From a virus (lineage: Duplodnaviria > Caudoviricetes): DNA of 64,000 nucleotides. Under the pieces are notes generated by a model. That model was not told the DNA's origin, did not search any database, and saw only the letters and a program-made list of their open reading frames with translations. The stretch lies in the IMG/VR virus record IMGVR_UViG_3300020577_006613, positions 1 through 64,000 of that record; one strand, given 5' to 3'. Of the stretch, positions 3,958 through 63,170 are shown in pieces. Numbering within the stretch: position 1 is the first letter of the stretch; each line of letters opens with the position of its first letter. The translations under genes and the position numbers were made by a program.

Positions 3958-5187
3958 ATGAAGACCACAGCAGTTATTGGCGCTAATTTCGGCGATGAAG
4001 GCAAAGGTCTTATGACCGACTATTTCAGCGCCAAAGATTCGCTTGTGGTTAGATACAACGGCGGCGCTCAGGCAGGACATACCGTTGTTACTCCTGACGG
4101 TAAGCGCCACGTTTTTGGACACTTCGGTAGCGGCTCCTTTGTTGGGGCCGCTACTTTTCTTGGACCTGAGTTTTTGGTCAATCCTTTGCTTTGGAAGAAA
4201 GAGCTTAATACTCTTCGGTCTATGGGTATTGAACCCAAGATGGGCTTTAGTCACCAATGTCGCATGACGCTTCCTTATGACATGCTCATTAACGAAGCAG
4301 TTGAAAGAGCAAGAGGAAACGGCAGACACGGATCTTGCGGTCTTGGTATCAATGAAACGGTTACTCGATGCCTTTCTGGAAGAGAGGCCTACAGCTATCC
4401 TTGGATTGTTAATTCGCTAACACGGAAAGAGACAAAAGAGAGGATCATCTCTATTCGAGATGGGTATTGCCGTAAGAGGATTAAAGACCTTGGGCTTTCT
4501 CCTGATCCCAAATTCTTTGACCTTTTCAACTCGGATAGTCTTCTTGAAAACTTCCTTACAGTTCTTGATGAATTTACGAATCAAACTACCTACATTCATC
4601 ATGGTAACGCTTTGGAGTTTTTTGGAGTCGAGAGCGTTGTTTTCGAGGGAGCGCAAGGTCTTTTGCTTGATGAAGATCATGAGTTCTTCCCTCATGTTAC
4701 CCGTAGCAAAACTGGACTCAAGAACATTCTTGAACTCTGTAAAGACTGGCAGATTGAAGAACTTGATGTTGTTTACGCAACAAGAGCGTACATGACTCGT
4801 CATGGCGTTGGTCCTTTCCCGAGCGAAGACAACACGCTTCGCTATGAAGATAAGACCAATGTTCACAATGAGTTTCAGGGAAGTCTGCGTTTTGGAAGGC
4901 TTGATATCGACTTGCTTTCTGCAACAATCAAGGAAGACTTGACAGTTGCTCATGGCTTCAATGTTAATGTAAATCCTGCTATAGCCATAACTTGCGTAGA
5001 TCAGGTGCCTGATATTTTGACTGCTGATTTCGGAGGCAGAACAATCAAAATTGACAAAGGCGCTCTTGTTGAGACTGTTGCAGACGCCTGCGGTATCCGT
5101 AAGGCCTATTTTAGCGAAGGACCAACCAGAGAACACGTTTCTCGGTATTTCCTGAGAGAATGGGTTTCTGCTCCAAGTCGGGGCTAG
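3958..5187 (+). CDS. purA: Adenylosuccinate synthetase family protein (divergent)
   Basis: GANFGDEGKG, RYNGGAQAGHT and FEGAQG motifs. Confidence 0.85.
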   Translation: MKTTAVIGANFGDEGKGLMTDYFSAKDSLVVRYNGGAQAGHTVVTPDGKRHVFGHFGSGSFVGAATFLGPEFLVNPLLWKKELNTLRSMGIEPKMGFSHQCRMTLPYDMLINEAVERARGNGRHGSCGLGINETVTRCLSGREAYSYPWIVNSLTRKETKERIISIRDGYCRKRIKDLGLSPDPKFFDLFNSDSLLENFLTVLDEFTNQTTYIHHGNALEFFGVESVVFEGAQGLLLDEDHEFFPHVTRSKTGLKNILELCKDWQIEELDVVYATRAYMTRHGVGPFPSEDNTLRYEDKTNVHNEFQGSLRFGRLDIDLLSATIKEDLTVAHGFNVNVNPAIAITCVDQVPDILTADFGGRTIKIDKGALVETVADACGIRKAYFSEGPTREHVSRYFLREWVSAPSRG

Positions 5188-5193
5188 ACTTTC
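5182..5193 (+). promoter_or_regulatory. GGCTAGACTTTC conserved motif, copy 1
   Basis: Exact 12-mer found eight times, always at plus-strand gene boundaries. Confidence 0.7.
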
Positions 5194-5211: not shown

Positions 5212-5490
5212 ATGGCAAAGCGAAAGAAGCAAGAAGCGATGACGGTTGCGGAACTCATTGAGTTGCTCAAGACCGTTGAGCAGGACAGAATCGTTGTCAT
5301 GTCGAAAGACTCCGAAGGCAACGGATATTCTCCGTTTTCGGGCATCTTTACAGCCGCCTATCGAGCCGACTCAACATGGAGCGGTGAGATTGGACTGGAA
5401 GAGTTGACTGACGAAGATCGAAAGCAAGGGTATTCCGACGAAGATGTGATTGACGGTGTTCCTTGCATCGTTTTGCAACCGACAAATTGA
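5212..5490 (+). CDS. Hypothetical phage protein
   Basis: MTVAELIELL..D.EGN.Y pattern common in small phage proteins. Confidence 0.65.
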   Translation: MAKRKKQEAMTVAELIELLKTVEQDRIVVMSKDSEGNGYSPFSGIFTAAYRADSTWSGEIGLEELTDEDRKQGYSDEDVIDGVPCIVLQPTN

Positions 5491-5496
5491 AAATAC

Positions 5497-5570
5497 GCCT
5501 TTGTAGTTCAACGGTAGAACCGGGGTCTCTAAAACTCTGAGCGTTGCAGGTTCGAATCCTGTCAAAGGCG
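5497..5570 (+). tRNA. Amber suppressor tRNA (anticodon CUA), copy 1
   Basis: Acceptor GCCTTTG/CAAAGGC, D arm, anticodon arm GGGGT-CTCTAAA-ACTCT (CTA at 5529-5531), T arm GCAGG-TTCGAAT-CCTGT, discriminator G. Confidence 0.9.
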
Positions 5571-5573
5571 CTT

Positions 5574-5647
5574 GCTCTCGTAGCTCAACTGGTTAGAGCC
5601 GGTGTTTCTAAAACTCCAGGTTGCGGGTTCGAATCCCGCCGAGGGCA
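5574..5647 (+). tRNA. Amber suppressor tRNA (anticodon CUA), copy 2
   Basis: Acceptor GCTCTCG/CGAGGGC, anticodon arm GGTGT-TTCTAAA-ACTCC (CTA at 5608-5610), T arm GCGGG-TTCGAAT-CCCGC, discriminator A. Confidence 0.9.
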
Positions 5648-5852
5648 TTCATGGCAACCAAAACTCCATACGAGTTTCCTCAAGTCTTTGATACGCTGTT
5701 TGATCTCAAGTCTGCGCCGGAAGCAATTCGCAAGCTTGAACAAATGAGGCAGAAGTCAAAAGAGTTGAAGAAGGATTATGCCAAACTTCATCGTTTGTTG
5801 AGAGAGCATGGCTACAAGCCGAAGCTTCCTCACGAAATCTGAAAGGTCATAT

Positions 5853-8334: not shown

Positions 8335-8346
8335 GGCTAGACTTTC
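8335..8346 (+). promoter_or_regulatory. GGCTAGACTTTC motif, copy 2
   Basis: Exact match, about 24 nt before the structured RNA. Confidence 0.7.
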
Positions 8347-8553: not shown

Positions 8554-9093
8554 ATGACGTAGGTTGAATCGCAAGCTGTTTACCTGTATGTTCTCGTTCG
8601 ACAAGACCTCTCGCCTTCGCAACAAGCCGTTCAGGCATGTCATGCGGCGATTGAGGCAACCAGAAGGTTCACCCCTGGCTAGGACCAGGAACATCCTCAT
8701 CTGGTTCTGCTCTCTGTCACAAATGAAGATGAGCTTCTGAAGGCCTATGAGCGCCTTCAGCACTATGGCATTCGGGTCGCCAAGTTCGAAGAACCCGACC
8801 GTAACAATGAAATAACAGCTATCGCTACGGAACCGCTTCCTGCGGATTCCAAGCTGCGTCGTAAGTTCAGTTGCTATAAGCTCCTGAATCTTGATACCGC
8901 TGCGCCTGTTATTGAAGCGGAAGAAACCTCACAAACTGAAGAACCTGCTGAACTCCCTGAATGCTCTCTTTGCGAGGGCAGAGGCGAGGTTGATGACCCT
9001 ACGCCCTGCGGTCGCTGTCGCGTTAGGGGTTGTCGTTCCATGACCTGTCCTAAGTGTAAGGGCGTTCGAACAGAAGGAGTTACAAATGAATAA
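8554..9093 (+). CDS. Peptidyl-tRNA hydrolase (Pth2 family) with C-terminal Cys-rich tail; in-frame TAG at codons 3 and 43
   Basis: AAGGAG RBS then ATG ACG TAG GTT...; reads YVLVRQDLSPSQQAVQACHAA..LVLLSV..EDELL..FEEPD..TAIATEP; TAG at 8560 and 8680; TAA 9091 overlaps the next ATG. Confidence 0.82.
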
Positions 9094-26534: not shown

Positions 26535-27401
26535 ATGACTGCAACAAAAACCATCCCCTATTCTCAAGAGGCTCAGTCTATCTTTGATCAGGCGAAAGCT
26601 GTCGCTGAACGACACAATCAATCAACGATTGACACCGAGTGTCTTTTGCGTGGTCTGATTTTTAACGACAGGGTTCTTCCTGTAATCTCAGCCTTCGCTT
26701 CTCCTAAAGACCTTATTTCAAGAATCGAGAGTTCTCTCTCTTCTCGCCCTAAGTCTCCTAGCGGAACTATTCCAACGTTCGCAAGCGGAGTGAATACGAT
26801 TCGAGCGTCTATACAGAACGAAGCAATTACTGCTGGTTCGTCTGTTATCTCTCCTGACCATATTCTGTTGGGAATCCTTCGTCACCCTAACTTTGCTGCT
26901 GGTATTCTGTTGACCTTCTACGGTCTTGACTATCAGAATGCAAAGGCAAAGCTTGCGGCCCTTCCTGCTTTTGTTACTGCCGTAACTAGCTCTCCCTCTC
27001 CTGCTGCGGATTCTACTAAGACTAGCAGCAAAACCGCTAAGGCTCCTGCAACCAGTTGTGGTAGTGATTGCGGTTGCACAGCTAAGACTGATTCTGCAAC
27101 GGTTAATCCGAGTCAGATTCCAGACAGACTGAAGGATATCCTTTCTGCGATTCAGAACAAGACAAACGCTGCTTCTAACATTGTTGGTGCAGTTGTTGAT
27201 AGGGCGGCATATCGTGCTGAATGGCACAAGGCTCTTGATGCCTCTCTTGACCTGTCAGAGAACTCTGGGCTTTCTGTAGCAGCAGCCTTTGTTCATGTCG
27301 CAATGACGCATCCCACTCTCATGAAGGTGGCGGCTCGCCAGCAAATTCGCAAGGAAGCTATTGTTGATGCGATTGGAACTCTTCTTGGAATTGCGAAGTG
27401 A
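26535..27401 (+). CDS. Clp N-terminal repeat domain protein
   Basis: IDTECLLRGL and ISPDHILLGIL Clp_N repeats. Confidence 0.7.
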   Translation: MTATKTIPYSQEAQSIFDQAKAVAERHNQSTIDTECLLRGLIFNDRVLPVISAFASPKDLISRIESSLSSRPKSPSGTIPTFASGVNTIRASIQNEAITAGSSVISPDHILLGILRHPNFAAGILLTFYGLDYQNAKAKLAALPAFVTAVTSSPSPAADSTKTSSKTAKAPATSCGSDCGCTAKTDSATVNPSQIPDRLKDILSAIQNKTNAASNIVGAVVDRAAYRAEWHKALDASLDLSENSGLSVAAAFVHVAMTHPTLMKVAARQQIRKEAIVDAIGTLLGIAK

Positions 27402-27874
27402 TTCACGTTAGATCTCCTGCCAGAGCGAGGAACAGATACGGTTTGCCAACTTTGTTTATGGCAGGCGGTATCACAGGAACTATTGACTGGCAGGTAGACT
27501 TTCTGAAAATGCTCGAAGGCGAAGAGTTGATGGTTTTCAACCCTCGTCGTTTGGATTTCGATGCATCCAACAAAGAGATGGAAGTTGAACAGATAACGTG
27601 GGAACACGTTCACCTTGTTAAGGCTGATGCCATTTCTTTCTGGTTTACTCCTGAAACCCTATGCCCTATCACTCTCTTTGAGCTTGGTACGGTTATTGAC
27701 AAGAACCATCCTCAACGAGTGTTTATTGGATGTCATCCTGAGTATAAGAGACTTAGAGATGTCGAAATTCAAACAAGGTTGAGAAATCCAACCATTGAGG
27801 TTGTACAAAGTCTGTCCGAACTATCGGAACAAGTAAAAGACTGGGCAAGAAAGGCCAACGAAAACGGCGGCTAG
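27398..27874 (+). CDS. Nucleoside 2-deoxyribosyltransferase-like protein
   Basis: LFMAGGI..DWQ, FNPRR, QITWE, PITLFELG. Confidence 0.8.
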   Translation: MIHVRSPARARNRYGLPTLFMAGGITGTIDWQVDFLKMLEGEELMVFNPRRLDFDASNKEMEVEQITWEHVHLVKADAISFWFTPETLCPITLFELGTVIDKNHPQRVFIGCHPEYKRLRDVEIQTRLRNPTIEVVQSLSELSEQVKDWARKANENGG

Positions 27875-39147: not shown

Positions 39148-39747
39148 ATGCACTGGCGAGAATGGCATCCTGAATTATCATCTCAAAAGACCCTAAAAGA
39201 GGTTCTGTCTGAGATGCCAAGAGTTGCTCCTGACAAGATTCCCTGGCAAGTAAGGTTGCTTGAGAATCCTGAAAGTTCGGTAGCTTTTCCTGGCGCAATA
39301 TCTCTTTTCAGGCACGACTGCATTCATGCCATTCTTTGTGCTTCTTTTCATCCATTAGATGAAGCCTTTGTTATTGGCTTCACTATGGGCAGCGATAAGC
39401 GTATGACAAAGAGGCTTGCAAGATTTTTCATGTGGCTCACAACTTGGTTTTATCCCAAGAAGTATAGATTCAAAAAGCAAGACCTTTTTCAGTTTGCTAA
39501 AGGGTTAGCTTTTGCAAGAAGAAGTCAGGTTACGAATCTTGCTGATTTTCGGTTTGAGGATTATCAGGATTGTACCCTTCTTCAACTCAGACAAACTCTT
39601 GGTATAAATTGGCTTGACAATGACCAAGAATACCGTCAATGGTCTAAAAGATGGGGACTCTACCAGTTCTGCATAAACGATGAATGCAGGTTTGACTGTT
39701 GGCTTCGAGCAAAAGCCGAGTCTCAAGAAAGCACAAATGGCGGCTAG
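39148..39747 (+). CDS. Hypothetical protein with Coq4-like HDxxH..E motif
   Basis: HDCIHAIL..DEAFVIGFTMG. Confidence 0.5.
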   Translation: MHWREWHPELSSQKTLKEVLSEMPRVAPDKIPWQVRLLENPESSVAFPGAISLFRHDCIHAILCASFHPLDEAFVIGFTMGSDKRMTKRLARFFMWLTTWFYPKKYRFKKQDLFQFAKGLAFARRSQVTNLADFRFEDYQDCTLLQLRQTLGINWLDNDQEYRQWSKRWGLYQFCINDECRFDCWLRAKAESQESTNGG

Positions 39748-41031: not shown

Positions 41032-41500
41032 TTTGTAAAAGGAACAAAGAATGAAGTACATTTGCCTGATTTGTGGTGTTCTGTTGATCGCTCTTGCTCT
41101 TCTTTCTTGGATTTTCTACGGTCTAAAGAGTGGAGATCAAGGCGCAGGCTACGTTTTCGTGGGCATTGCTGGCGCTGTTATTGCTGGTTGGGGTGTTTCT
41201 ATTTACGAAAAAGAAATGAAGAGATAATCATGGACACACAAGACTTTGCTCGTTTTATGCTTCGCCCTATTGAGTGGGCCAAAACTCAGTACGCAGAGGC
41301 TTTTTGCCTCTTCGGTTTGATGGTTTTTATCGGCGTACTGTGGGGAACAATGTTCCTGGCTTTCGGTCTGCCGATTGTCTTTTGGATTCTTGCTGGTATA
41401 GGCTTTGTTGGACTGATTTTGTTCCTCGTAACTCTTGTTCTCTTCGCTATGGAAGAGAAGCGAAAGGAACGAGAAGTTCTTGAACGCAGAAAGAAGAACG

Positions 41501-42964
41501 ATGCATCTAAGCGAACTTGAACAGGTAAGAAAGGCGCGTCTCGATAAGATTCGAGAGCTTAATGTTGATCCGTATGGATGCGCCATTCAGGGTGTTGAAA
41601 AGATCGCAAGCCTTGTGGACAATTTTAGAGTTGGCGAGCCTCTTGCTCCCAATCCTGAAAGCCTTTTCTATTCAACTCCTCGCAGAGCGCAGGGTCGCAT
41701 TGTTCTCCGCAGAGACAATGGTGGCCTAATCTGGTTCAAGATCAGAGATGACTCTGGCGAGATTCAGGTTGCTTTTAGCAAGAAGTCTGCAAGCGAACCA
41801 GAAAACTTTGCTCTTGCAAAGCTTACCGATCTTGGCGATATCATCGCCGTTGACGGCCCTATTCGCCGTACTCAAACCGGCGAAATCACTATTTGGGCAA
41901 GCAGGATTTATCTTGCATGCAAGAGCCTTACGCATCCTCCCGATAAGGTAGAAGGATTGCAAGATGTAGAGATTAGGTATCGCCAACGATACCTTGATAT
42001 GGCCTTTAACAGCGACTTTACTCGCCGTTTGCAGGACAGATCAAGAATCATTTCTCTCTTGCGCAAGGCCTTTGAGAGCCGCAGATACATTGAAGTTGAA
42101 ACTCCCATGCTGCACCCCATTGCTGGTGGTGCAGCGGCGCGGCCATTTGCAACGCATCTCAATGCTCTTGATATCCCATTGTTTATGAGAATCGCTCCTG
42201 AACTCTATCTCAAGAGATTGATTGTCGGCGGCATGTCAAGGGTTTTCGAGATCAACCGTAACTTCAGAAATGAAGGCGTTGACGCAACGCATAATCCTGA
42301 GTTTACTGCGCTCGAAGCCTACGGAATCAACGAGACTGCTCAAAGCCTTATGATGATGGTTGAGGAAATCATTAAGGAAGTTGTTTTCTCCATTGACAAT
42401 ACTCCTCATGACCACCAGGGTATTTTCAAGTTCGGAGAGCATCTGGTTGATTTCAACCAGCCTTTTAGAGTTGTTTCTTTCAAGGAACTCTTCCAAAGAG
42501 GCGTTAGCAGAGACATTCTCCAAGAAACTGACTTTATCAAGGCTAATAAGCTTTTCGAAGAGTTTTGTGAGCCTTTGATTGATCCGAATGTTCCAACATT
42601 CGTTTATGGCTATCCATCAGCCATTTCGCCTTTGACAAAGACGATTGCAGGAGCGGAAGTTCTTTCTCAGCGAGCAGACCTTTTCATTGGCGGCATGGAA
42701 ATCGGAACCATCTATACGGAACAGAACGATCCGCAGGTTCAGTTTGATGTCTTCAATCAACAGCTTTCTGATGACGAAGAATCAACTCATCGCACAATGG
42801 ATACCGACTTTGTTGAAGCGTTGAAGGTTGGTATGCCTCCAACTGGCGGGTTGGGTATCGGGGTTGACCGACTTGTTATGCTTTTGACTGGACAGACCAG
42901 CGTAAGAGATGTCATTGCCTTCCCGTTCATGCGACCGCTTGAAGTTCCGCAAAATCAAGGCTAA
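41501..42964 (+). CDS. lysS: Lysyl-tRNA synthetase, class II
   Basis: OB domain, RYRQRYLD, VETPML..GGAAARPF.TH, RIAPELYLKRL, FRNEG..HNPEF, GMPPTGGLGIGVDRL. Confidence 0.95.
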   Translation: MHLSELEQVRKARLDKIRELNVDPYGCAIQGVEKIASLVDNFRVGEPLAPNPESLFYSTPRRAQGRIVLRRDNGGLIWFKIRDDSGEIQVAFSKKSASEPENFALAKLTDLGDIIAVDGPIRRTQTGEITIWASRIYLACKSLTHPPDKVEGLQDVEIRYRQRYLDMAFNSDFTRRLQDRSRIISLLRKAFESRRYIEVETPMLHPIAGGAAARPFATHLNALDIPLFMRIAPELYLKRLIVGGMSRVFEINRNFRNEGVDATHNPEFTALEAYGINETAQSLMMMVEEIIKEVVFSIDNTPHDHQGIFKFGEHLVDFNQPFRVVSFKELFQRGVSRDILQETDFIKANKLFEEFCEPLIDPNVPTFVYGYPSAISPLTKTIAGAEVLSQRADLFIGGMEIGTIYTEQNDPQVQFDVFNQQLSDDEESTHRTMDTDFVEALKVGMPPTGGLGIGVDRLVMLLTGQTSVRDVIAFPFMRPLEVPQNQG

Positions 42965-59276: not shown

Positions 59277-59905
59277 GTCCTGAACAAATTCTTCGTAAAG
59301 CGGCTTTCATGATTAGAAGTGCAGACCCTTCTATCACCATACAAGAAGCCGAGGCAAGAGTAAGAAACTACACAGGCTTTCCATCATCGTCCAAAGACAG
59401 GGATGATTCATACAAAAGACTGTCGTGGGATGATTACTTCATGTCTTTGGCTTTTCTTGTAGCCATGCGTTCGCCTGACGCTCAAACTCAGCACGGATGC
59501 GTCATTGTTGATCAAAACAACAAGGTTATTTCGACTGGCTACAATGGATGGTTGCAGGGGTCTTCTGATGAAGACATGCCCAACATTAGGCCTAAGAAGT
59601 ATTTGCATGTTATCCACTCAGAAGTCAATGCTGTTTTGTCGGCTCAGCAAAACCTTGTTGGTTGTAGAGTTTATGTAACTGGTCCGCCTTGTAATGAGTG
59701 CCTTAAGACGATGGCTCGCGTTGGAATCAAGGAAATCATCATAGGCGATAGGCCTCATGTTTTTTCTGAGGGATACCTTGAACTTCAGTCGTTCATTTGC
59801 GCATCTCAAGATATCAAGATTCGTAAGTTTACTGGAACTCTTGCGTCTTTGGATGGCAGAACCATATCAAAGGAAAGCCATGAGAGTTTACAAAGAACGA
59901 AATAA
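59273..59905 (+). CDS. dCMP deaminase family protein
   Basis: WDDYFM, RSPD, TGYNG, HSEVNA, PCNEC. Confidence 0.88.
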   Translation: MSPEQILRKAAFMIRSADPSITIQEAEARVRNYTGFPSSSKDRDDSYKRLSWDDYFMSLAFLVAMRSPDAQTQHGCVIVDQNNKVISTGYNGWLQGSSDEDMPNIRPKKYLHVIHSEVNAVLSAQQNLVGCRVYVTGPPCNECLKTMARVGIKEIIIGDRPHVFSEGYLELQSFICASQDIKIRKFTGTLASLDGRTISKESHESLQRTK

Positions 59906-60249
59906 CCTCGAAGAAATAGACGCTCTTATCCATGAACGGATTTATGGACTAACTACCTATAAACAGGACGCAAGCGTTCGAGACTGGCAGGGGTTGATCC
60001 CTAAATACTCTTCAGATTTTTCACTTGCAATGTCAGTCGCTGAGAAAGTCGGCCTTTTCGACACTATAATGCTGGCGAAGGACCGAGAGAACTGGATCAC
60101 GCTTGAAGCCTCAGTAAGTAGTTTGAACGAAACCCAGTCTCAGAAGTTCTATTCTTCAGGTCTTGATATCAAGGCCAAAGCTTTCTCTTCTGGCTTTACC
60201 GCTGCTGAAGCAGTTGCAAGAGCCTGTTTGGTTCTGAAGGTAAAAGAAA

Positions 60250-61281
60250 ATGAGCAATCCAGCAGGTCCGATCAACAGAGTCTTGGAGTCCTTTAGAAGA
60301 CTTGTTCCAGAAGACAAATCTGCTGTTATCGCATGCTCAGGCGGGGCCGATTCAATGGCCCTGCTTTTTTGCGCGCAAAAGACTGGACGAACCCTTATTG
60401 CTGCTCATGTTCTTCACGACATGAGGCCTTACGATGAAGCATCAAAAGACAGGGATCTGGTTCAGTCATACTGCGAAAGTAACGCCATTCATTTCGTTGA
60501 CAAGGTTGCAAAGCTAAGGTTTGGCGAAAAAATCCCAACAGAAGAAGCATACGGATACGAAAGACAAAGACTCTTATGGGGAGTGGCTGATGAGTACAAC
60601 GGATATGTTGTAACCGCTCATCACGCAGATGACCAGCTTGAAACAATGCTCATGAAGCTCTGTAGAGGTTCAGGTCTTCGTGGACTGTCGGGCATTTCAG
60701 AGACACACAACCACAACGACAACATTACTGTTCGACCAATGCTCTCAATCTCCAAGGATGATGTATACGAGATTTGCAGACAGAACAATGTTCCGTTCAA
60801 TGAAGATCAAACCAACAAAGATACCAAGTACACTCGAAACGCTATTCGACACAATGTGATTCCTGCTTTGAAGGCTCTGTTTCCTCATTGTTCAGAAAAG
60901 GCAAACGACGCTGCTGCTATCTTTTCACAGGCGCAGGAACTTGCAAACGAAAGCCTCTACGATCTCAAGTTGCACCAGAAGACTAACATTGTTTATGATC
61001 CCGACTGGGGAGGTGGCGGTACTTGCGTAAGCCTTCCTATTGAGGCTTTGCAACTTGCCAACAACATTACTATCTATGAGTGGCTTAGAAGTTCTGTTGT
61101 CTATCTTGCAGGAGGTTTTGAATACGTTGCTCATGACAGCGTAAACAAGGAAATGGTTGACAAAGTAATCTTGGCTATTAGAAACAGGTCTAAGAGAACC
61201 TTTGATTGGCCTCTCAATATCAAAGTTAGCGTTTCCAAGACTGAAGTAACAGTGATGATTGTTAAGAAGATTCTGCCATGA
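60250..61281 (+). CDS. tilS: tRNA(Ile)-lysidine synthetase
   Basis: SGGADS, TAHHADDQLET, RG.G..GL, RPML, D.TN....RN..R. Confidence 0.9.
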   Translation: MSNPAGPINRVLESFRRLVPEDKSAVIACSGGADSMALLFCAQKTGRTLIAAHVLHDMRPYDEASKDRDLVQSYCESNAIHFVDKVAKLRFGEKIPTEEAYGYERQRLLWGVADEYNGYVVTAHHADDQLETMLMKLCRGSGLRGLSGISETHNHNDNITVRPMLSISKDDVYEICRQNNVPFNEDQTNKDTKYTRNAIRHNVIPALKALFPHCSEKANDAAAIFSQAQELANESLYDLKLHQKTNIVYDPDWGGGGTCVSLPIEALQLANNITIYEWLRSSVVYLAGGFEYVAHDSVNKEMVDKVILAIRNRSKRTFDWPLNIKVSVSKTEVTVMIVKKILP

Positions 61282-62123
61282 AGAAAGCTCCTGTTGTCAA
61301 GTGGATTATTGAAGAAGGGACGTTTTCTGAGGATATAGCTTCAATTGTTGAGGCTGTGCGGTCTCAGAACATGATAGCTGAAACTGTAAGATATAGACCC
61401 TTTGAAAGCGGAGAATACAATCAGTTTGGTGACAACGACTGCGTTATTGTGCTGGGTTCGATCAACCTAGTCAGGCAAATCCAAAGACAAAAGCCTTGGA
61501 TTCCTGGAAGCTTTGCCAATTTCCCCAACTTCGACTGCATGACCTATTACGCCTACTTTGGCAAGTTTCTCTGGAACAATCCTTACTACATAATGCCTCT
61601 GGCAGAAGTAAAGAGAAAGTTCAACGACTTACAGTTGAAGCACGGTAGACTCTTCATAAGACCTTGTACTGGCACGAAAGCTTTTTCAGGTCAGATTCTT
61701 GATTATGAAGATCTTCTTCGCCATGAAGACCAATATGGAAAGCCAGAGCTTCCTGTTGTTATCGCTCCAGGAATGGAGATAAGAAGCGAGTTTAGGCTTT
61801 TCTGCTCCGGTAATAAAGTCATTGCCGGTTCAATGTACTACAATCAAGAAGGAATGTACGAAACCGCTCCTATTGATATGCTTGCCGGGGAGAAATATTC
61901 TACACTGGCAGTAAACTATGCCCATGATATTCTCAGTCAAGTTTCTTGGCGACCTGATAAGATGTTCGCTATGGACATCGGAATTGGCCCCAGAAACGAG
62001 GTAGGCCTTATCGAGATTAACAGCTTTAGCTGTTCTGGCTGGTACAGGTCTCCTCCATCTCTTATTGTTGCCGAAGCCGCTCGACTGGCAAGAGAAGAGT
62101 GGGAGGAAATTAACAATCTCTAG
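61278..62123 (+). CDS. ATP-grasp protein (R2K/DUF4343-like)
   Basis: FIRP...K.FSG, EFR.F, MDIG..IEINSFSCSG.Y. Confidence 0.75.
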   Translation: MKKAPVVKWIIEEGTFSEDIASIVEAVRSQNMIAETVRYRPFESGEYNQFGDNDCVIVLGSINLVRQIQRQKPWIPGSFANFPNFDCMTYYAYFGKFLWNNPYYIMPLAEVKRKFNDLQLKHGRLFIRPCTGTKAFSGQILDYEDLLRHEDQYGKPELPVVIAPGMEIRSEFRLFCSGNKVIAGSMYYNQEGMYETAPIDMLAGEKYSTLAVNYAHDILSQVSWRPDKMFAMDIGIGPRNEVGLIEINSFSCSGWYRSPPSLIVAEAARLAREEWEEINNL

Positions 62124-62216
62124 AAAAGAACGAACTTAAGAAGGATAAAGAAACCTTCGTCGGTAAGTTTCATAAAGACATCCACTTACGAGTGGAGGCC
62201 TACCTGGAGGCCCCTT

Positions 62217-63170
62217 ATGAAACTGATACTCTTTGTCTTTTCTGTTCTTCTTGTTCTTTTCTCTAAACCAGCGTTTTCTAGCGTAACAATAGTTCCGCTG
62301 AAAGCAAATGACAAAGCAATCGACAACTTTCCGTTTGTTGGCATGATGATTAATGTCAGCAACAATTCTTGCGGATCTGGAACCGTCATTGGCGACGGTT
62401 CTTTTGTCTTAACGGCCAGGCATGTTGTAACTCATAATGGCTCGGATATGGGAATGTTGCTAGATGGCTCTAACTTTGTCTTTGTAATAGGGGATAAGAA
62501 GTACAAAGTCTTGAATGTTTATGGACATCCTTCAGCAGACATAGCAATAGTCAAGATTGACGGAATACATCAACAAGCAGCAAAGCTTTCGTTTTCAACT
62601 CGTTTTATAGACAAAGAGTTCTACGGAACAGGTTATGGTAAGGGGTCGTCTTCAACTACATCAAAGTGCATAGATTGGAACTTGGAATACGGAACTATGC
62701 GAGTCTATAAGAACAAGATGGATACCGAGTTTATTAGCCTCAAGATTTCTGATTCAAACATAACAATGACGAGAGTATTCGTTTTCGACCTTAGCGATCC
62801 CAATACGCTAGGGAAAAGTGATGGAGCTATTGAGGGCGAAGGAATGCACGGCCCCGGCGACTCTGGTGGCGGTATCTTTGTTATTGAGGATGGAGAGCTT
62901 CATCTTTTCGGCGTTATATCAGCATTAACTCAAGAAGCTCCATATATGGGATTTGTGCATGATGTTTCTGCATGTAAAGAATGGATTGAGTCTATTGTGA
63001 AAAATGCGGTTGCCGTTCCTAAGCTCCAAGCCCTAGGCGAACAGAATAGCATTATCGGTGAAGCCCTAAAAGCGCCTTCACCAAAAGTCGATACACCTAT
63101 CACTCCTTTCTTGAGTAACGAAAGGCGAAGACGTAGCAGGATACCCCCATTCGATGAAATGCCCTTTTAA
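62217..63170 (+). CDS. Secreted trypsin-like serine protease
   Basis: Signal peptide, LTARHV, ADIA, GDSGG catalytic triad. Confidence 0.85.
   Translation: MKLILFVFSVLLVLFSKPAFSSVTIVPLKANDKAIDNFPFVGMMINVSNNSCGSGTVIGDGSFVLTARHVVTHNGSDMGMLLDGSNFVFVIGDKKYKVLNVYGHPSADIAIVKIDGIHQQAAKLSFSTRFIDKEFYGTGYGKGSSSTTSKCIDWNLEYGTMRVYKNKMDTEFISLKISDSNITMTRVFVFDLSDPNTLGKSDGAIEGEGMHGPGDSGGGIFVIEDGELHLFGVISALTQEAPYMGFVHDVSACKEWIESIVKNAVAVPKLQALGEQNSIIGEALKAPSPKVDTPITPFLSNERRRRSRIPPFDEMPF

What the first reader, a model, noticed from the sequence alone, without database searches (positions are those of the whole stretch)
5497..5647. Two different tandem amber-suppressor tRNAs in a genome that still stops at TAG
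Seen: two complete cloverleaves 3 nt apart, both with anticodon CUA but with different acceptor stems and discriminators (G73 and A73), so not a simple duplication. Known: CUA tRNAs occur in TAG-recoded phages, but coding density here is complete under code 11. Inference: they serve selective readthrough. The only amber-dependent gene I found is Pth2, with two ambers. They might carry different amino acids, or extend TAG-ending phage and host proteins late in infection.
Basis: partly seen in the sequence, partly recalled or inferred. Interest (0 to 1): 0.8.

Follow-up and report, generated by a model that had tools for sequence, protein, structure and literature searches.

The report
Paired amber-suppressor tRNAs gating phage Pth2
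A fragment of a giant phage that uses the normal genetic code carries two different tRNAs that read the UAG stop codon; their only conserved target is a small tRNA-hydrolase-like gene interrupted by two UAGs, which gives the puzzling "orphan" suppressor tRNAs of cultured jumbo phages a testable job.

Summary
Both tRNA genes are real: 5497-5570 with G73 and 5574-5647 with A73, both with anticodon CUA, 3 nt apart and 78% identical.

The contig is only about 20% of a jumbo phage. It is not TAG-recoded, and neither is a 98%-complete 494-kb relative. Truly recoded control loci show a large jump in coding density when TAG is read as sense.

In both genomes the only gene with conserved in-frame TAGs is the Pth2-like gene, at codons 3 and 43.

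Across 77 distant phage loci this gene has an early stop. The stop type matches the nearby suppressor: TAG with CUA, TGA with UCA, TAA with UUA. The base after the gate stop is almost always a purine.

- tRNA2 is the resident gene that follows the adenylosuccinate synthetase gene in relatives.
- tRNA1, together with a 92-aa ORF, is an added paralogue.

Among 17 same-anticodon suppressor pairs in standard-code phage DNA, 14 have exactly one G73 member (P about 1e-4). The published XacN1 pair has identical bodies and different acceptor ends, which suggests two charging identities. No data here show expression or charging.

Tandem CUA pairs in a standard-code jumbo phage are already published (XacN1, targets unknown). 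This scan has also noted the suppressor-Pth2 module on at least 11 other genomes.

The parts
5182..5192 (+). Promoter-like motif GGCTAGACTTT just upstream of the tRNA unit. Its TAG is the stop codon of the adenylosuccinate synthetase gene (3958-5187).
   Evidence: There are 8 exact plus-strand copies in the window. Allowing one mismatch gives 10 matches against an expected 0.98, and no shuffle out of 100 reaches 10. Promoter function is inferred.
5212..5490 (+). 92-aa ORF of unknown function. Together with tRNA1 it is an insertion relative to the same locus in relatives.
   Evidence: Translation; no Pfam hit; no tblastn homologue in G001, G003, G004 or G005.
5497..5570 (+). tRNA1: amber-suppressor tRNA (anticodon CUA), G73, tRNA-Trp-like body.
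   Evidence: Closest relatives are the second CUA tRNA of relative G005 (86%) and the annotated Sup-tRNA of Cronobacter phage GAP32 (84-85%).
5574..5647 (+). tRNA2: amber-suppressor tRNA (anticodon CUA), A73. It is the orthologue of the single CUA tRNA that follows the adenylosuccinate synthetase gene in relatives.
   Evidence: It is 83-88% identical to the syntenic tRNAs of G003, G004, G005 and L002. The BLAST neighbours of its body are mostly phage tRNA-Trp.
5651..5842 (+). 63-aa ORF that starts 3 nt after tRNA2, so the tRNAs sit inside a compact polycistronic unit.
   Evidence: Sequence reading. Its homologue follows the CUA tRNA in G005 at 86% identity.
8335..8345 (+). Second copy of the same promoter-like motif, upstream of the Pth2-like gene.
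8554..9093 (+). Pth2-like gene, the target of the suppressors. It reads AAGGAG, 7 nt, ATG ACG TAG, so TAG is codon 3; a second TAG is codon 43.
   Evidence: Pfam PTH2 E=1e-7, with the match spanning the second TAG. Both TAGs are conserved in G001, G003, G004 and G005. Database homologues show Q at these sites only because they were called with TAG=Q.
8560..8562 (+). Gate codon 1 (UAG, followed by G).
   Evidence: An early stop at codons 2-7 is a family-wide feature.
8680..8682 (+). Gate codon 2 (UAG, followed by G), in a loop that varies among homologues lacking the TAG.
41435..42964 (+). Phage-encoded class II lysyl-tRNA synthetase. It is a candidate, not a shown, charging enzyme for the A73 suppressor.
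   Evidence: NCBIfam lysS_bact 450 bits, above the cut-off of 427.6. Pfam tRNA-synt_2 plus an OB anticodon-binding domain. The link to tRNA2 is inference only.

Best explanation
Both genes encode working UAG-reading (amber suppressor) tRNAs of one phage tRNA family with a tRNA-Trp-like body.

They sit in a compact operon behind a phage promoter-like motif. They must be cut out of the transcript and receive CCA after transcription.

Their conserved job is to read the two UAG codons (codons 3 and 43) of the Pth2-like hydrolase gene 3 kb downstream. That gene carries the same promoter-like motif. The hydrolase is therefore made only in proportion to the square of suppressor activity.

Suppression stays selective for two reasons. 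The gate codons lie in a suppression-prone context (UAG followed by a purine, very early in the gene, so a failure wastes only a dipeptide). Ordinary TAG terminators are not in that context.

- tRNA2 (A73) is the resident gene of the locus.
- tRNA1 (G73) is a paralogue added with a small ORF.

Pairs of such suppressors nearly always combine one G73 member with one A73 or U73 member. The two are therefore most likely charged through different synthetases. Candidates are a Gln/Trp-type route for G73 and a Lys-type route for A73, possibly through the phage's own LysRS. This would keep the gate working across hosts or conditions.

Shown here: the genes, their structural conservation, the standard code, the conserved gate codons, the stop/anticodon co-variation and the discriminator rule. 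Inferred: expression, charging, amino-acid identity, partial efficiency and the purpose of the gate.
For: tRNA quality and covariation.

Both anticodon loops keep U33 and A36-A37-A38, the same loop as the classical E. coli tRNA-Trp amber suppressor (sequence reading plus my own knowledge).

Standard code:
- This contig: density 0.936 versus 0.951.
- The 98%-complete colinear relative G001: 0.947 versus 0.955, with no deviant 20-kb window.
- Recoded controls jump by 0.15-0.22.

Each of seven relatives has one CUA tRNA right after the adenylosuccinate synthetase gene. G005 has a second, G73 copy 27 kb away.

The Pth2-like gene keeps both TAGs in G001, G003, G004 and G005. It is the only gene that passes the in-frame or early-TAG screens in G000 and G001.

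Across 77 Pth2-like loci there is an early stop at codons 2-7:
- TAG with a CUA tRNA nearby in at least 25 loci.
- TGA with UCA in L167, L174, L178 and L232.
- TAA with UUA in L189.

The base after the gate TAG is a purine in 30 of 32 cases, against 23 of 51 real TAG terminators (Fisher P=4e-6).

Cultured phages share the module. GAP32 has M-A-Q-TAG 2.8 kb from its annotated Sup-tRNA. XacN1 has M-K-TAG five codons before the annotated start of ORF364.

Pair rule: 15 of 17 pairs differ at N73, and 14 of 17 have exactly one G73 (P about 1e-4 against singleton frequencies). The XacN1 pair is identical in the body and differs only in the acceptor stem and in A73/G73.

A phage LysRS is present.
Against: - There is no evidence of transcription, processing, CCA addition or aminoacylation.
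- Only about 20% of this phage's genome is available.
- Relatives with the same two gate codons manage with one CUA tRNA (G001, which is complete). The second tRNA is therefore not required, and the tandem arrangement is unique to this contig among close relatives.
- tRNA2 has a U.U mismatch in the anticodon stem and U32 instead of C32.
- TAG still ends 11-14% of substantial genes, including the gene immediately upstream. Back-up stops after TAG are not clearly enriched (P=0.05 in G001, 0.75 here). Efficient suppression would therefore extend many proteins.
- The tRNA unit and the Pth2 unit share one promoter-like motif, so the gate is not an obvious timing device.
- The gate positions are variable in homologues without TAG, so the inserted amino acid cannot be read from alignments.
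- The pair statistics were defined after seeing the data, and the pairs are not all phylogenetically independent.
Confidence: 0.62

Rival explanations
1. Plain redundancy. tRNA1 is an extra copy picked up by recombination with a related phage, together with the 92-aa ORF. It adds at most gene dosage for the same suppressor function. The acceptor and discriminator differences are neutral drift with compensatory changes, and there is no second charging identity.
For: - All clade CUA tRNAs form one family.
- The discriminator also flips between orthologues at the same locus: G in G001, A in G003, G004 and G005.
- Acceptor stems vary by compensatory changes everywhere.
- The complete relative G001 has only one CUA tRNA.
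- The tandem arrangement is not conserved.
- The gate residues sit at positions where any amino acid should do.
Against: - 14 of 17 pairs have exactly one G73 member, against 35% expected.
- The XacN1 pair has no differences in the body (positions 8-65) but differs at 6 of 7 acceptor pairs plus N73. Drift does not produce that pattern.
- G73-class members also differ from the other class at pair 7-66 (P=0.017).
Confidence: 0.25
2. General leaky readthrough is the main function. The suppressors extend TAG-ending host and phage proteins, or burden host termination, as part of host takeover. The amber-gated Pth2-like gene is only a feedback sensor or limiter of that activity, comparable to the in-frame UGA of prfB.
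For: - TAG ends 11-14% of phage genes and presumably many host genes.
- Relative G001 encodes a truncated release-factor gene with a prfB-like CTT TGA C frameshift site. The clade therefore also manipulates termination.
- A gate placed in a tRNA-hydrolase-like gene suits a feedback loop.
Against: - No conserved C-terminal extension after any TAG stop was found between G000 and G001. The one apparent case, at 60294, is an artefact of an overlapping conserved gene.
- The XacN1 authors found no homology beyond its 18 amber stops (PMC5852040).
- Back-up stops are not enriched.
- The stop type in Pth2 co-varies with the anticodon even for TAA/UUA. General readthrough at TAA would be very costly.
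Confidence: 0.09
3. Conventional explanation. The unsampled 80% of this genome, for example its late structural genes, is TAG-recoded, and the tRNAs simply serve that code.
For: - The contig is only about 20% complete and holds no terminase or other structural genes that I could find.
- Recoding in phages is typically confined to late genes (bioRxiv 10.1101/2021.08.26.457843).
Against: - The colinear relative G001 is 98% complete. It carries the same tRNA and Pth2 module and shows no recoding in any of its 25 windows of 20 kb, with TAG ending 15% of its ORFs.
- The same metric detects the recoded control loci.
- The tRNA bodies are not the U1-A72 Gln-like type seen in those recoded loci.
Confidence: 0.03

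Closest known systems
Tandem tRNA-Sup(CUA) pair of Xanthomonas citri jumbo phage XacN1 (AP018399; Yoshikawa et al. 2018, PMC5852040)
   Same: - Two CUA tRNAs a few nucleotides apart (7 nt there, 3 nt here) in a standard-code jumbo phage with many tRNA genes.
- One member has A73 and the other G73, with different acceptor stems.
- An HD+Pth2-like gene opens with ATG AAG TAG.
   Different: - The XacN1 tRNAs encode CCA, lie in the terminal repeats far from the Pth2-like gene, and are identical outside the acceptor end. Here the two differ throughout (78% identity), lack CCA and lie 3 kb from the gene.
- The XacN1 gene has one gate codon and an extra HD domain.
- The paper reported that no target genes could be identified.
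Stop-codon-recoded phages with phage suppressor tRNAs (TAG read as Gln, 'code 15': crAss-like, Lak and others; Borges et al., bioRxiv 10.1101/2021.08.26.457843; PMC9523058)
   Same: A phage-encoded CUA tRNA overrides a host stop codon. That paper also notes suppressor tRNAs in some standard-code relatives, as a possible step towards recoding.
   Different: Here TAG remains an ordinary terminator genome-wide. A single gene carries the in-frame TAGs, and the design is conserved across very distant phages rather than being a transition state. The tRNA bodies are Trp-like with G1-C72, not the Gln-like U1-A72 type of the recoded control loci.
E. coli su+7 (supU), the amber suppressor derived from tRNA-Trp (my own knowledge, not checked in a paper here)
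   Same: It has the same anticodon loop CUCUAAA and a tRNA-Trp-like body. Its G73 matches tRNA1. It is known to be charged largely by GlnRS, which shows that a CUA anticodon can switch charging identity.
   Different: su+7 is a laboratory point mutant of a cellular tRNA. The tRNAs here are natural, conserved phage genes with acceptor stems unlike E. coli tRNA-Trp.
prfB (RF2) autoregulation through an in-frame UGA (my own knowledge)
   Same: An in-frame stop codon early in a translation-factor gene makes its expression report on how that stop codon is being decoded.
   Different: prfB escapes by a +1 frameshift and senses its own product. Here escape is by a dedicated suppressor tRNA, and it is not known whether the Pth2-like product feeds back on the suppressor.

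Membership tests
tRNA (Rfam RF00005) | Cloverleaf that scores above the family's gathering threshold | tested here: met
   55.3 and 62.1 bits against a threshold of 29; ARAGORN cloverleaves.
tRNA (Rfam RF00005) | Helices maintained by compensatory changes among relatives | tested here: met
   98.6% of cells are paired and 13 of 21 pairs show double changes. No shuffle out of 500 reaches this, and slid controls pair at 35-56%.
Amber suppressor tRNA | Anticodon CUA in a 7-nt loop with U33 and a purine at position 37 | tested here: met
   Loops CUCUAAA and UUCUAAA.
Amber suppressor tRNA | Is aminoacylated and inserts an amino acid at UAG in vivo | not testable with these tools
   Indirect support only: conserved in-frame TAGs in one gene, and stop/anticodon co-variation.
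Code-15 (TAG-reassigned) phage | Many genes with in-frame TAG; coding density and ORF length rise sharply when TAG is read as sense | tested here: not met
   G000 goes from 0.936 to 0.951 and G001 from 0.947 to 0.955, with no deviant window. Recoded controls go from 0.66-0.75 to 0.83-0.93.
Code-15 (TAG-reassigned) phage | TAG avoided as a terminator | tested here: not met
   TAG ends 14% (G000) and 11% (G001) of ORFs of at least 100 aa.
XacN1-type tandem suppressor pair in a standard-code jumbo phage | Two adjacent CUA tRNAs with different acceptor stems and discriminators, in a phage that uses code 11 | tested here: met
   code tests as in the rows above.
XacN1-type tandem suppressor pair in a standard-code jumbo phage | Jumbo genome with a large tRNA complement | tested here: inconclusive
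   G000 is a 100-kb fragment estimated at 20% complete and holds 6 tRNAs. Its colinear relative G001 is 494 kb with 71 tRNAs.
Suppressor-gated Pth2-like module (noted repeatedly by this scan; not found in the literature searched) | Pth2-like gene with an in-frame stop within the first few codons, matched by a phage suppressor tRNA of the cognate anticodon | tested here: met
   ATG ACG TAG at 8554-8562, with the CUA tRNAs 3 kb upstream.
tRNA-Pyl (ARAGORN's label) | Pyrrolysyl-tRNA synthetase present, and the atypical tRNA-Pyl architecture | tested here: not met
   No PylS match in G000 or G001. The D loop (GG) and T loop (TTCGAAT) are canonical. The atypical architecture of tRNA-Pyl is from my own knowledge.

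The most novel reading that the evidence does not exclude
The G73 member and the A73/U73 member of these pairs may be two separate charging channels, served by different synthetases and possibly carrying different amino acids. For the A73 member the phage's own LysRS is a candidate. If so, the UAG gate at the start of the Pth2-like gene would work as a two-input sensor of the tRNA-charging state of the infected cell, and that sensor would set the level of a peptidyl-tRNA-hydrolase-like enzyme. The gate would stay open if a host defence or starvation blocked one route. This would be a natural, conserved use of nonsense suppression as a regulatory device in phages that never change their genetic code.
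Probability: 0.25. Interest if true: 0.85.

Novelty: new variant of a known kind. Interest (0 to 1): 0.68.

Why it matters
Suppressor tRNAs in standard-code phages have been an open puzzle. The XacN1 paper states that no target genes could be found, and the RsoM2USA paper only guesses at targets.

This locus and its relatives supply three things:
- A conserved target: a stop codon a few codons into a Pth2-like gene.
- Co-variation between the stop type and the suppressor anticodon.
- A rule for pairs: one G73 member plus one non-G73 member.

All of this can be tested directly in cultured phages that carry the module (XacN1, GAP32 and relatives).

It also matters for annotation. The gene is truncated or missing in deposited records (GAP32_397, XacN1 ORF364, and several records with no CDS under the match). 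A CUA tRNA should not by itself be taken as a sign of a recoded phage.

If the pair has two identities, the system is a natural example of regulatory nonsense suppression, of interest for translation control and for genetic-code engineering.

Tried and rejected
1. **DNA similarity of the locus to cultured phages.** Only the tRNAs match, so there is no close cultured relative.
2. **Inferring the inserted amino acid from Pth2 homologues.** The Q seen in close homologues is an artefact of gene calling with TAG=Q. Homologues without TAG are variable at both positions.
3. **Direct PDB sequence search with the Pth2-like protein.** No informative hit.
4. **Isotype assignment by similarity.** I compared against the 70 other tRNAs of G001 and against annotated phage tRNAs. 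The bodies are nearest tRNA-Trp, but Arg and Lys follow closely, so the assignment is not decisive.
5. **A dicodon coding-potential scan for in-frame TAGs.** Discrimination was weak. The plus-strand hits other than Pth2 were ordinary gene-TAG-RBS-ATG junctions.
6. **Candidate readthrough fusions.**
   - 61278-63170: the downstream part starts with its own signal peptide.
   - 75231-76700: no conserved alignment across the TAG.
   - 59757-60437: the apparent homology after the TAG comes from the overlapping conserved next gene, and the G001 homologue ends 8 residues later.
7. **Back-up stop enrichment after TAG terminators.** Not significant.
8. **Terminase search as a marker of late genes.** No match in any record, so I fetched and scanned the whole G001 genome instead.
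9. **My first count of structure pairs.** It used a mis-registered structure string and should be ignored. One search is the correct run.
10. **Mini-HisRS and truncated GluRS as chargers of the suppressors.** Neither tRNA has C73, the discriminator base I know as the mark of bacterial tRNA-His. The GluRS fragment scores below the cut-offs for both GluRS and GluQRS. Nothing links them to these tRNAs.

Full report
**1. Observation**

ARAGORN reports two tRNAs with anticodon CTA at 5497-5571 and 5573-5648. Rfam's tRNA model gives 5497-5570 (55.3 bits) and 5574-5647 (62.1 bits), against a gathering score of 29.

- tRNA1 has acceptor GCCTTTG/CAAAGGC, discriminator G73, a 7-nt D loop, a 7-nt variable region and the loop CUCUAAA.
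- tRNA2 has acceptor GCTCTCG/CGAGGGC, A73, a 9-nt D loop, a 5-nt variable region and the loop UUCUAAA. It has one U.U mismatch in the anticodon stem.

The two genes are 3 nt apart and encode no CCA. They lie 6 nt after a 92-aa ORF and 3 nt before a 63-aa ORF. They are 78% identical.

On an alignment of 14 family members, the cloverleaf is 98.6% paired and 13 of 21 pairs show compensatory double changes. This is far above the shuffled and slid controls (one search used a mis-registered string and should be ignored).

ARAGORN's label 'tRNA-Pyl' only reflects the anticodon. There is no PylS in this contig or in the near-complete relative.

**2. What the DNA is**

The window is the first 64 kb of a single 100,328-bp IMG/VR virus contig. 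The contig is linear and estimated at 20% complete. It is rich in tRNA and translation genes:
- a full LysRS (41435-42964; lysS_bact 450 bits, above the cut-off);
- a truncated GluRS-like catalytic domain;
- a mini-HisRS;
- EF-Ts;
- NAD and nucleotide metabolism genes, including the adenylosuccinate synthetase (AdSS) gene just upstream of the tRNAs.

No structural genes were found. That fifth is the part which, in recoded phages, usually stays in standard code. This was the main conventional rival.

**3. Is the phage recoded?**

In the contig, greedy ORF density is 0.936 under code 11 and 0.951 with TAG read as sense. TAG ends 26 of 161 ORFs.

Using the AdSS protein I found seven relatives at 57-58% identity. 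They include a 494-kb record (G001, 98% complete) and a 370-kb record. The contig is colinear with about 200-297 kb of G001.

I fetched all of G001. It has 71 tRNAs, one of them CUA. Its density is 0.947 versus 0.955. None of its 25 windows of 20 kb behaves as recoded, and TAG ends 100 of 657 ORFs.

The same metric jumps from 0.66-0.75 to 0.83-0.93 in six loci from truly recoded phages (L111, L117, L122, L123, L138, L140). I found those loci by their suppressor anticodon arm. So the test has power, and this clade uses the standard code throughout.

**4. What the tRNAs read**

*Within the clade.* The Pth2-like gene at 8554-9093 begins AAGGAG, 7 nt, ATG ACG TAG, and has a second TAG at codon 43. 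Pfam PTH2 matches across the second TAG. Both TAGs are conserved as TAG in G001, G003, G004 and G005. Close database homologues show Q at these sites only because they were called with TAG=Q.

I screened for other genes with in-frame TAGs in three ways:
- conservation across the TAG between G000 and G001;
- a coding-potential scan;
- a dedicated screen for start, 1-6 codons, TAG, then a long open frame.

Only this gene passed, in both the contig and the complete relative. Three apparent fusions were examined and rejected.

*Across distant phages.* I searched viral contigs with a Pth2 alignment and obtained 77 loci from very diverse large phages. Almost all have a stop at codons 2-7 of the gene. 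A suppressor tRNA usually lies within 10 kb.

The stop type matches the anticodon:
- TAG with CUA in at least 25 loci;
- TGA with UCA in L167, L174, L178 and L232;
- TAA with UUA in L189.

The base after the gate TAG is a purine in 30 of 32 cases. Among real TAG terminators of G001 it is a purine in 23 of 51 (Fisher P=4e-6). From my own knowledge, a 3' purine is the context that favours suppression and U is the context that favours termination. Both gate codons in this window are followed by G.

*Cultured phages.* Cronobacter phage GAP32 has M-A-Q-TAG 2.8 kb from its annotated Sup-tRNA, and its deposited CDS is truncated. Xanthomonas phage XacN1 has ATG AAG TAG five codons before the annotated start of ORF364, an HD+Pth2-like gene.

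**5. Why two tRNAs?**

*Origin of the pair.* In all seven relatives one CUA tRNA follows the AdSS gene. tRNA2 is its orthologue, at 83-88% identity and with the same acceptor stem as G003. tRNA1 is closest to a second CUA tRNA of G005, which has G73 and lies 27 kb from the resident A73 gene. It is also close to the GAP32 Sup-tRNA.

Relative to G005, this contig has an insertion made of the 92-aa ORF plus tRNA1. The pair therefore combines two paralogous lineages and is not a local duplication. G001 shows that one tRNA is enough for a two-TAG gate.

*Other pairs.* I collected further same-anticodon suppressor pairs from standard-code contigs and added the XacN1 pair.
- Of 17 pairs, 15 differ at the discriminator.
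- 14 have exactly one G73 member.
- Singleton frequencies are A 27, G 11, U 10.
- Against those frequencies, the binomial tail is about 0.01 for differing discriminators and about 1e-4 for exactly one G73. It is 2e-4 if G005 is dropped as the same clade.

G73 members also favour a G7-C66 pair: 11 of 14 against 7 of 20 (P=0.017).

*The XacN1 pair.* This is the clearest case. The two genes are identical from position 8 to 65. They differ at 6 of 7 acceptor pairs and in A73 versus G73.

The acceptor end and discriminator are the main non-anticodon identity elements for synthetases (my own knowledge). The pattern therefore points to two charging identities. These statistics were defined after seeing the data, and the pairs are not fully independent.

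*Which amino acids?* This is unknown. The bodies are nearest phage tRNA-Trp. From my own knowledge of E. coli, CUA suppressors are typically captured by GlnRS or LysRS. The phage encodes a LysRS. A link between that LysRS and tRNA2 is speculation.

**6. Mechanism proposed**

The tRNA unit (motif at 5182) and the Pth2 unit (motif at 8335) both lie behind the same promoter-like 11-mer. It has 8 exact copies in the window, far more than expected by chance.

The tRNAs must be excised from a polycistronic transcript and receive CCA. G001 encodes a protein with the nucleotidyltransferase head domain of CCA-adding enzymes.

Charged suppressor competes with release factor at the two gate codons. Full-length Pth2-like protein should therefore scale roughly with the square of suppression efficiency. 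A failed attempt at codon 3 releases only a dipeptide.

Ordinary TAG terminators are mostly in poorer suppression contexts. Readthrough at them would add short tails.

What the gate is for is not shown. It could match hydrolase output to the supply of functional phage tRNA, sense charging, or provide feedback on the suppressor.

**7. Comparison with what is known**

- The XacN1 paper reports two CUA suppressor genes in each terminal repeat and states that no target genes could be identified.
- The RsoM2USA paper notes one CUA tRNA and only guesses at targets.
- Borges et al. note suppressor tRNAs in some standard-code relatives of recoded phages, as a possible step towards recoding.
- I found no paper that links suppressor tRNAs to an amber-interrupted Pth2-like gene.

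Within this scan the module has been noted on at least 11 other genomes. One of those notes concerns tandem CUA pairs and also names XacN1 as the closest known system. The Pth2 gene of this very window has been followed up separately.

**8. Verdict**

The pair itself is a new member of a published kind (XacN1). The following go beyond the literature I could search, so I rate the finding a new variant of a known kind:
- the conserved target gene;
- the stop/anticodon co-variation;
- the purine context after the gate codon;
- the one-G73 rule for pairs.

The weakest link is the complete lack of expression and charging data.

Noticed in passing
L093:1677-2427 (G001 161677-162427; relative, not in the window): The relative encodes a release-factor-like gene that lacks domain 1. 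Its best NCBIfam hit is RF1 (199 bits; RF2 scores 159). It has a GGQ motif and the tripeptide region reads PPS. The gene starts in another frame and carries a prfB-like frameshift site, AGGAG..CTT TGA C, so it seems to need a +1 shift at an in-frame UGA. Which stop codons it reads is unclear. It bears on how this clade handles termination.
   Followed up: partly
G001 209499-210304 and G003 72173-71359 (relatives): In two relatives the Pth2-like gene is interrupted between ...EPD and EITAIATEP... by about 0.8 kb. In G001 the insert stays in frame, giving a 399-codon open frame when TAG is read through. It may be an intein or a mobile insertion. The gene in this window is uninterrupted.
   Followed up: no
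L189 (TAA/UUA); L167, L174, L178, L232 (TGA/UCA): Some phages gate the same Pth2-like gene with TGA or even TAA and carry the matching opal (UCA) or ochre (UUA) suppressor tRNA nearby. L167 and L232 have two UCA tRNAs. An ochre suppressor in a phage is striking because TAA is the commonest terminator.
   Followed up: partly
L157:2836-3192 (GAP32) and L237/L235 (XacN1 ORF364): Deposited annotations of cultured phages truncate this gene. GAP32_397 starts downstream of the TAG. XacN1 ORF364 is annotated from an internal ATG five codons after ATG AAG TAG. Several other cultured jumbo phages have a Pth2-like tblastn match with no CDS annotated under it.
   Followed up: partly
window 5182, 8335, 13886, 27869, 39742, 42984, 44032, 49802 (+): The 11-mer GGCTAGACTTT recurs at gene boundaries, with 8 exact copies. 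In three copies its TAG is the stop codon of the upstream gene (3958-5187, 27398-27874, 39148-39747). A promoter-like element thus fixes TAG as a terminator at those genes.
   Followed up: partly
G001 about 161.6 kb, just upstream of the RF-like gene: A GGTTCGAATCC T-arm-like sequence lies upstream of the release-factor-like gene, but ARAGORN calls no tRNA there. It may be a degenerate or unusual tRNA-like element.
   Followed up: no
L113:2912-5038: In a distant 12.5-kb viral contig, a G73 and an A73 CUA tRNA, both encoding CCA, flank a Pth2-like gene that starts ATG TAG (stop at codon 2).
   Followed up: partly
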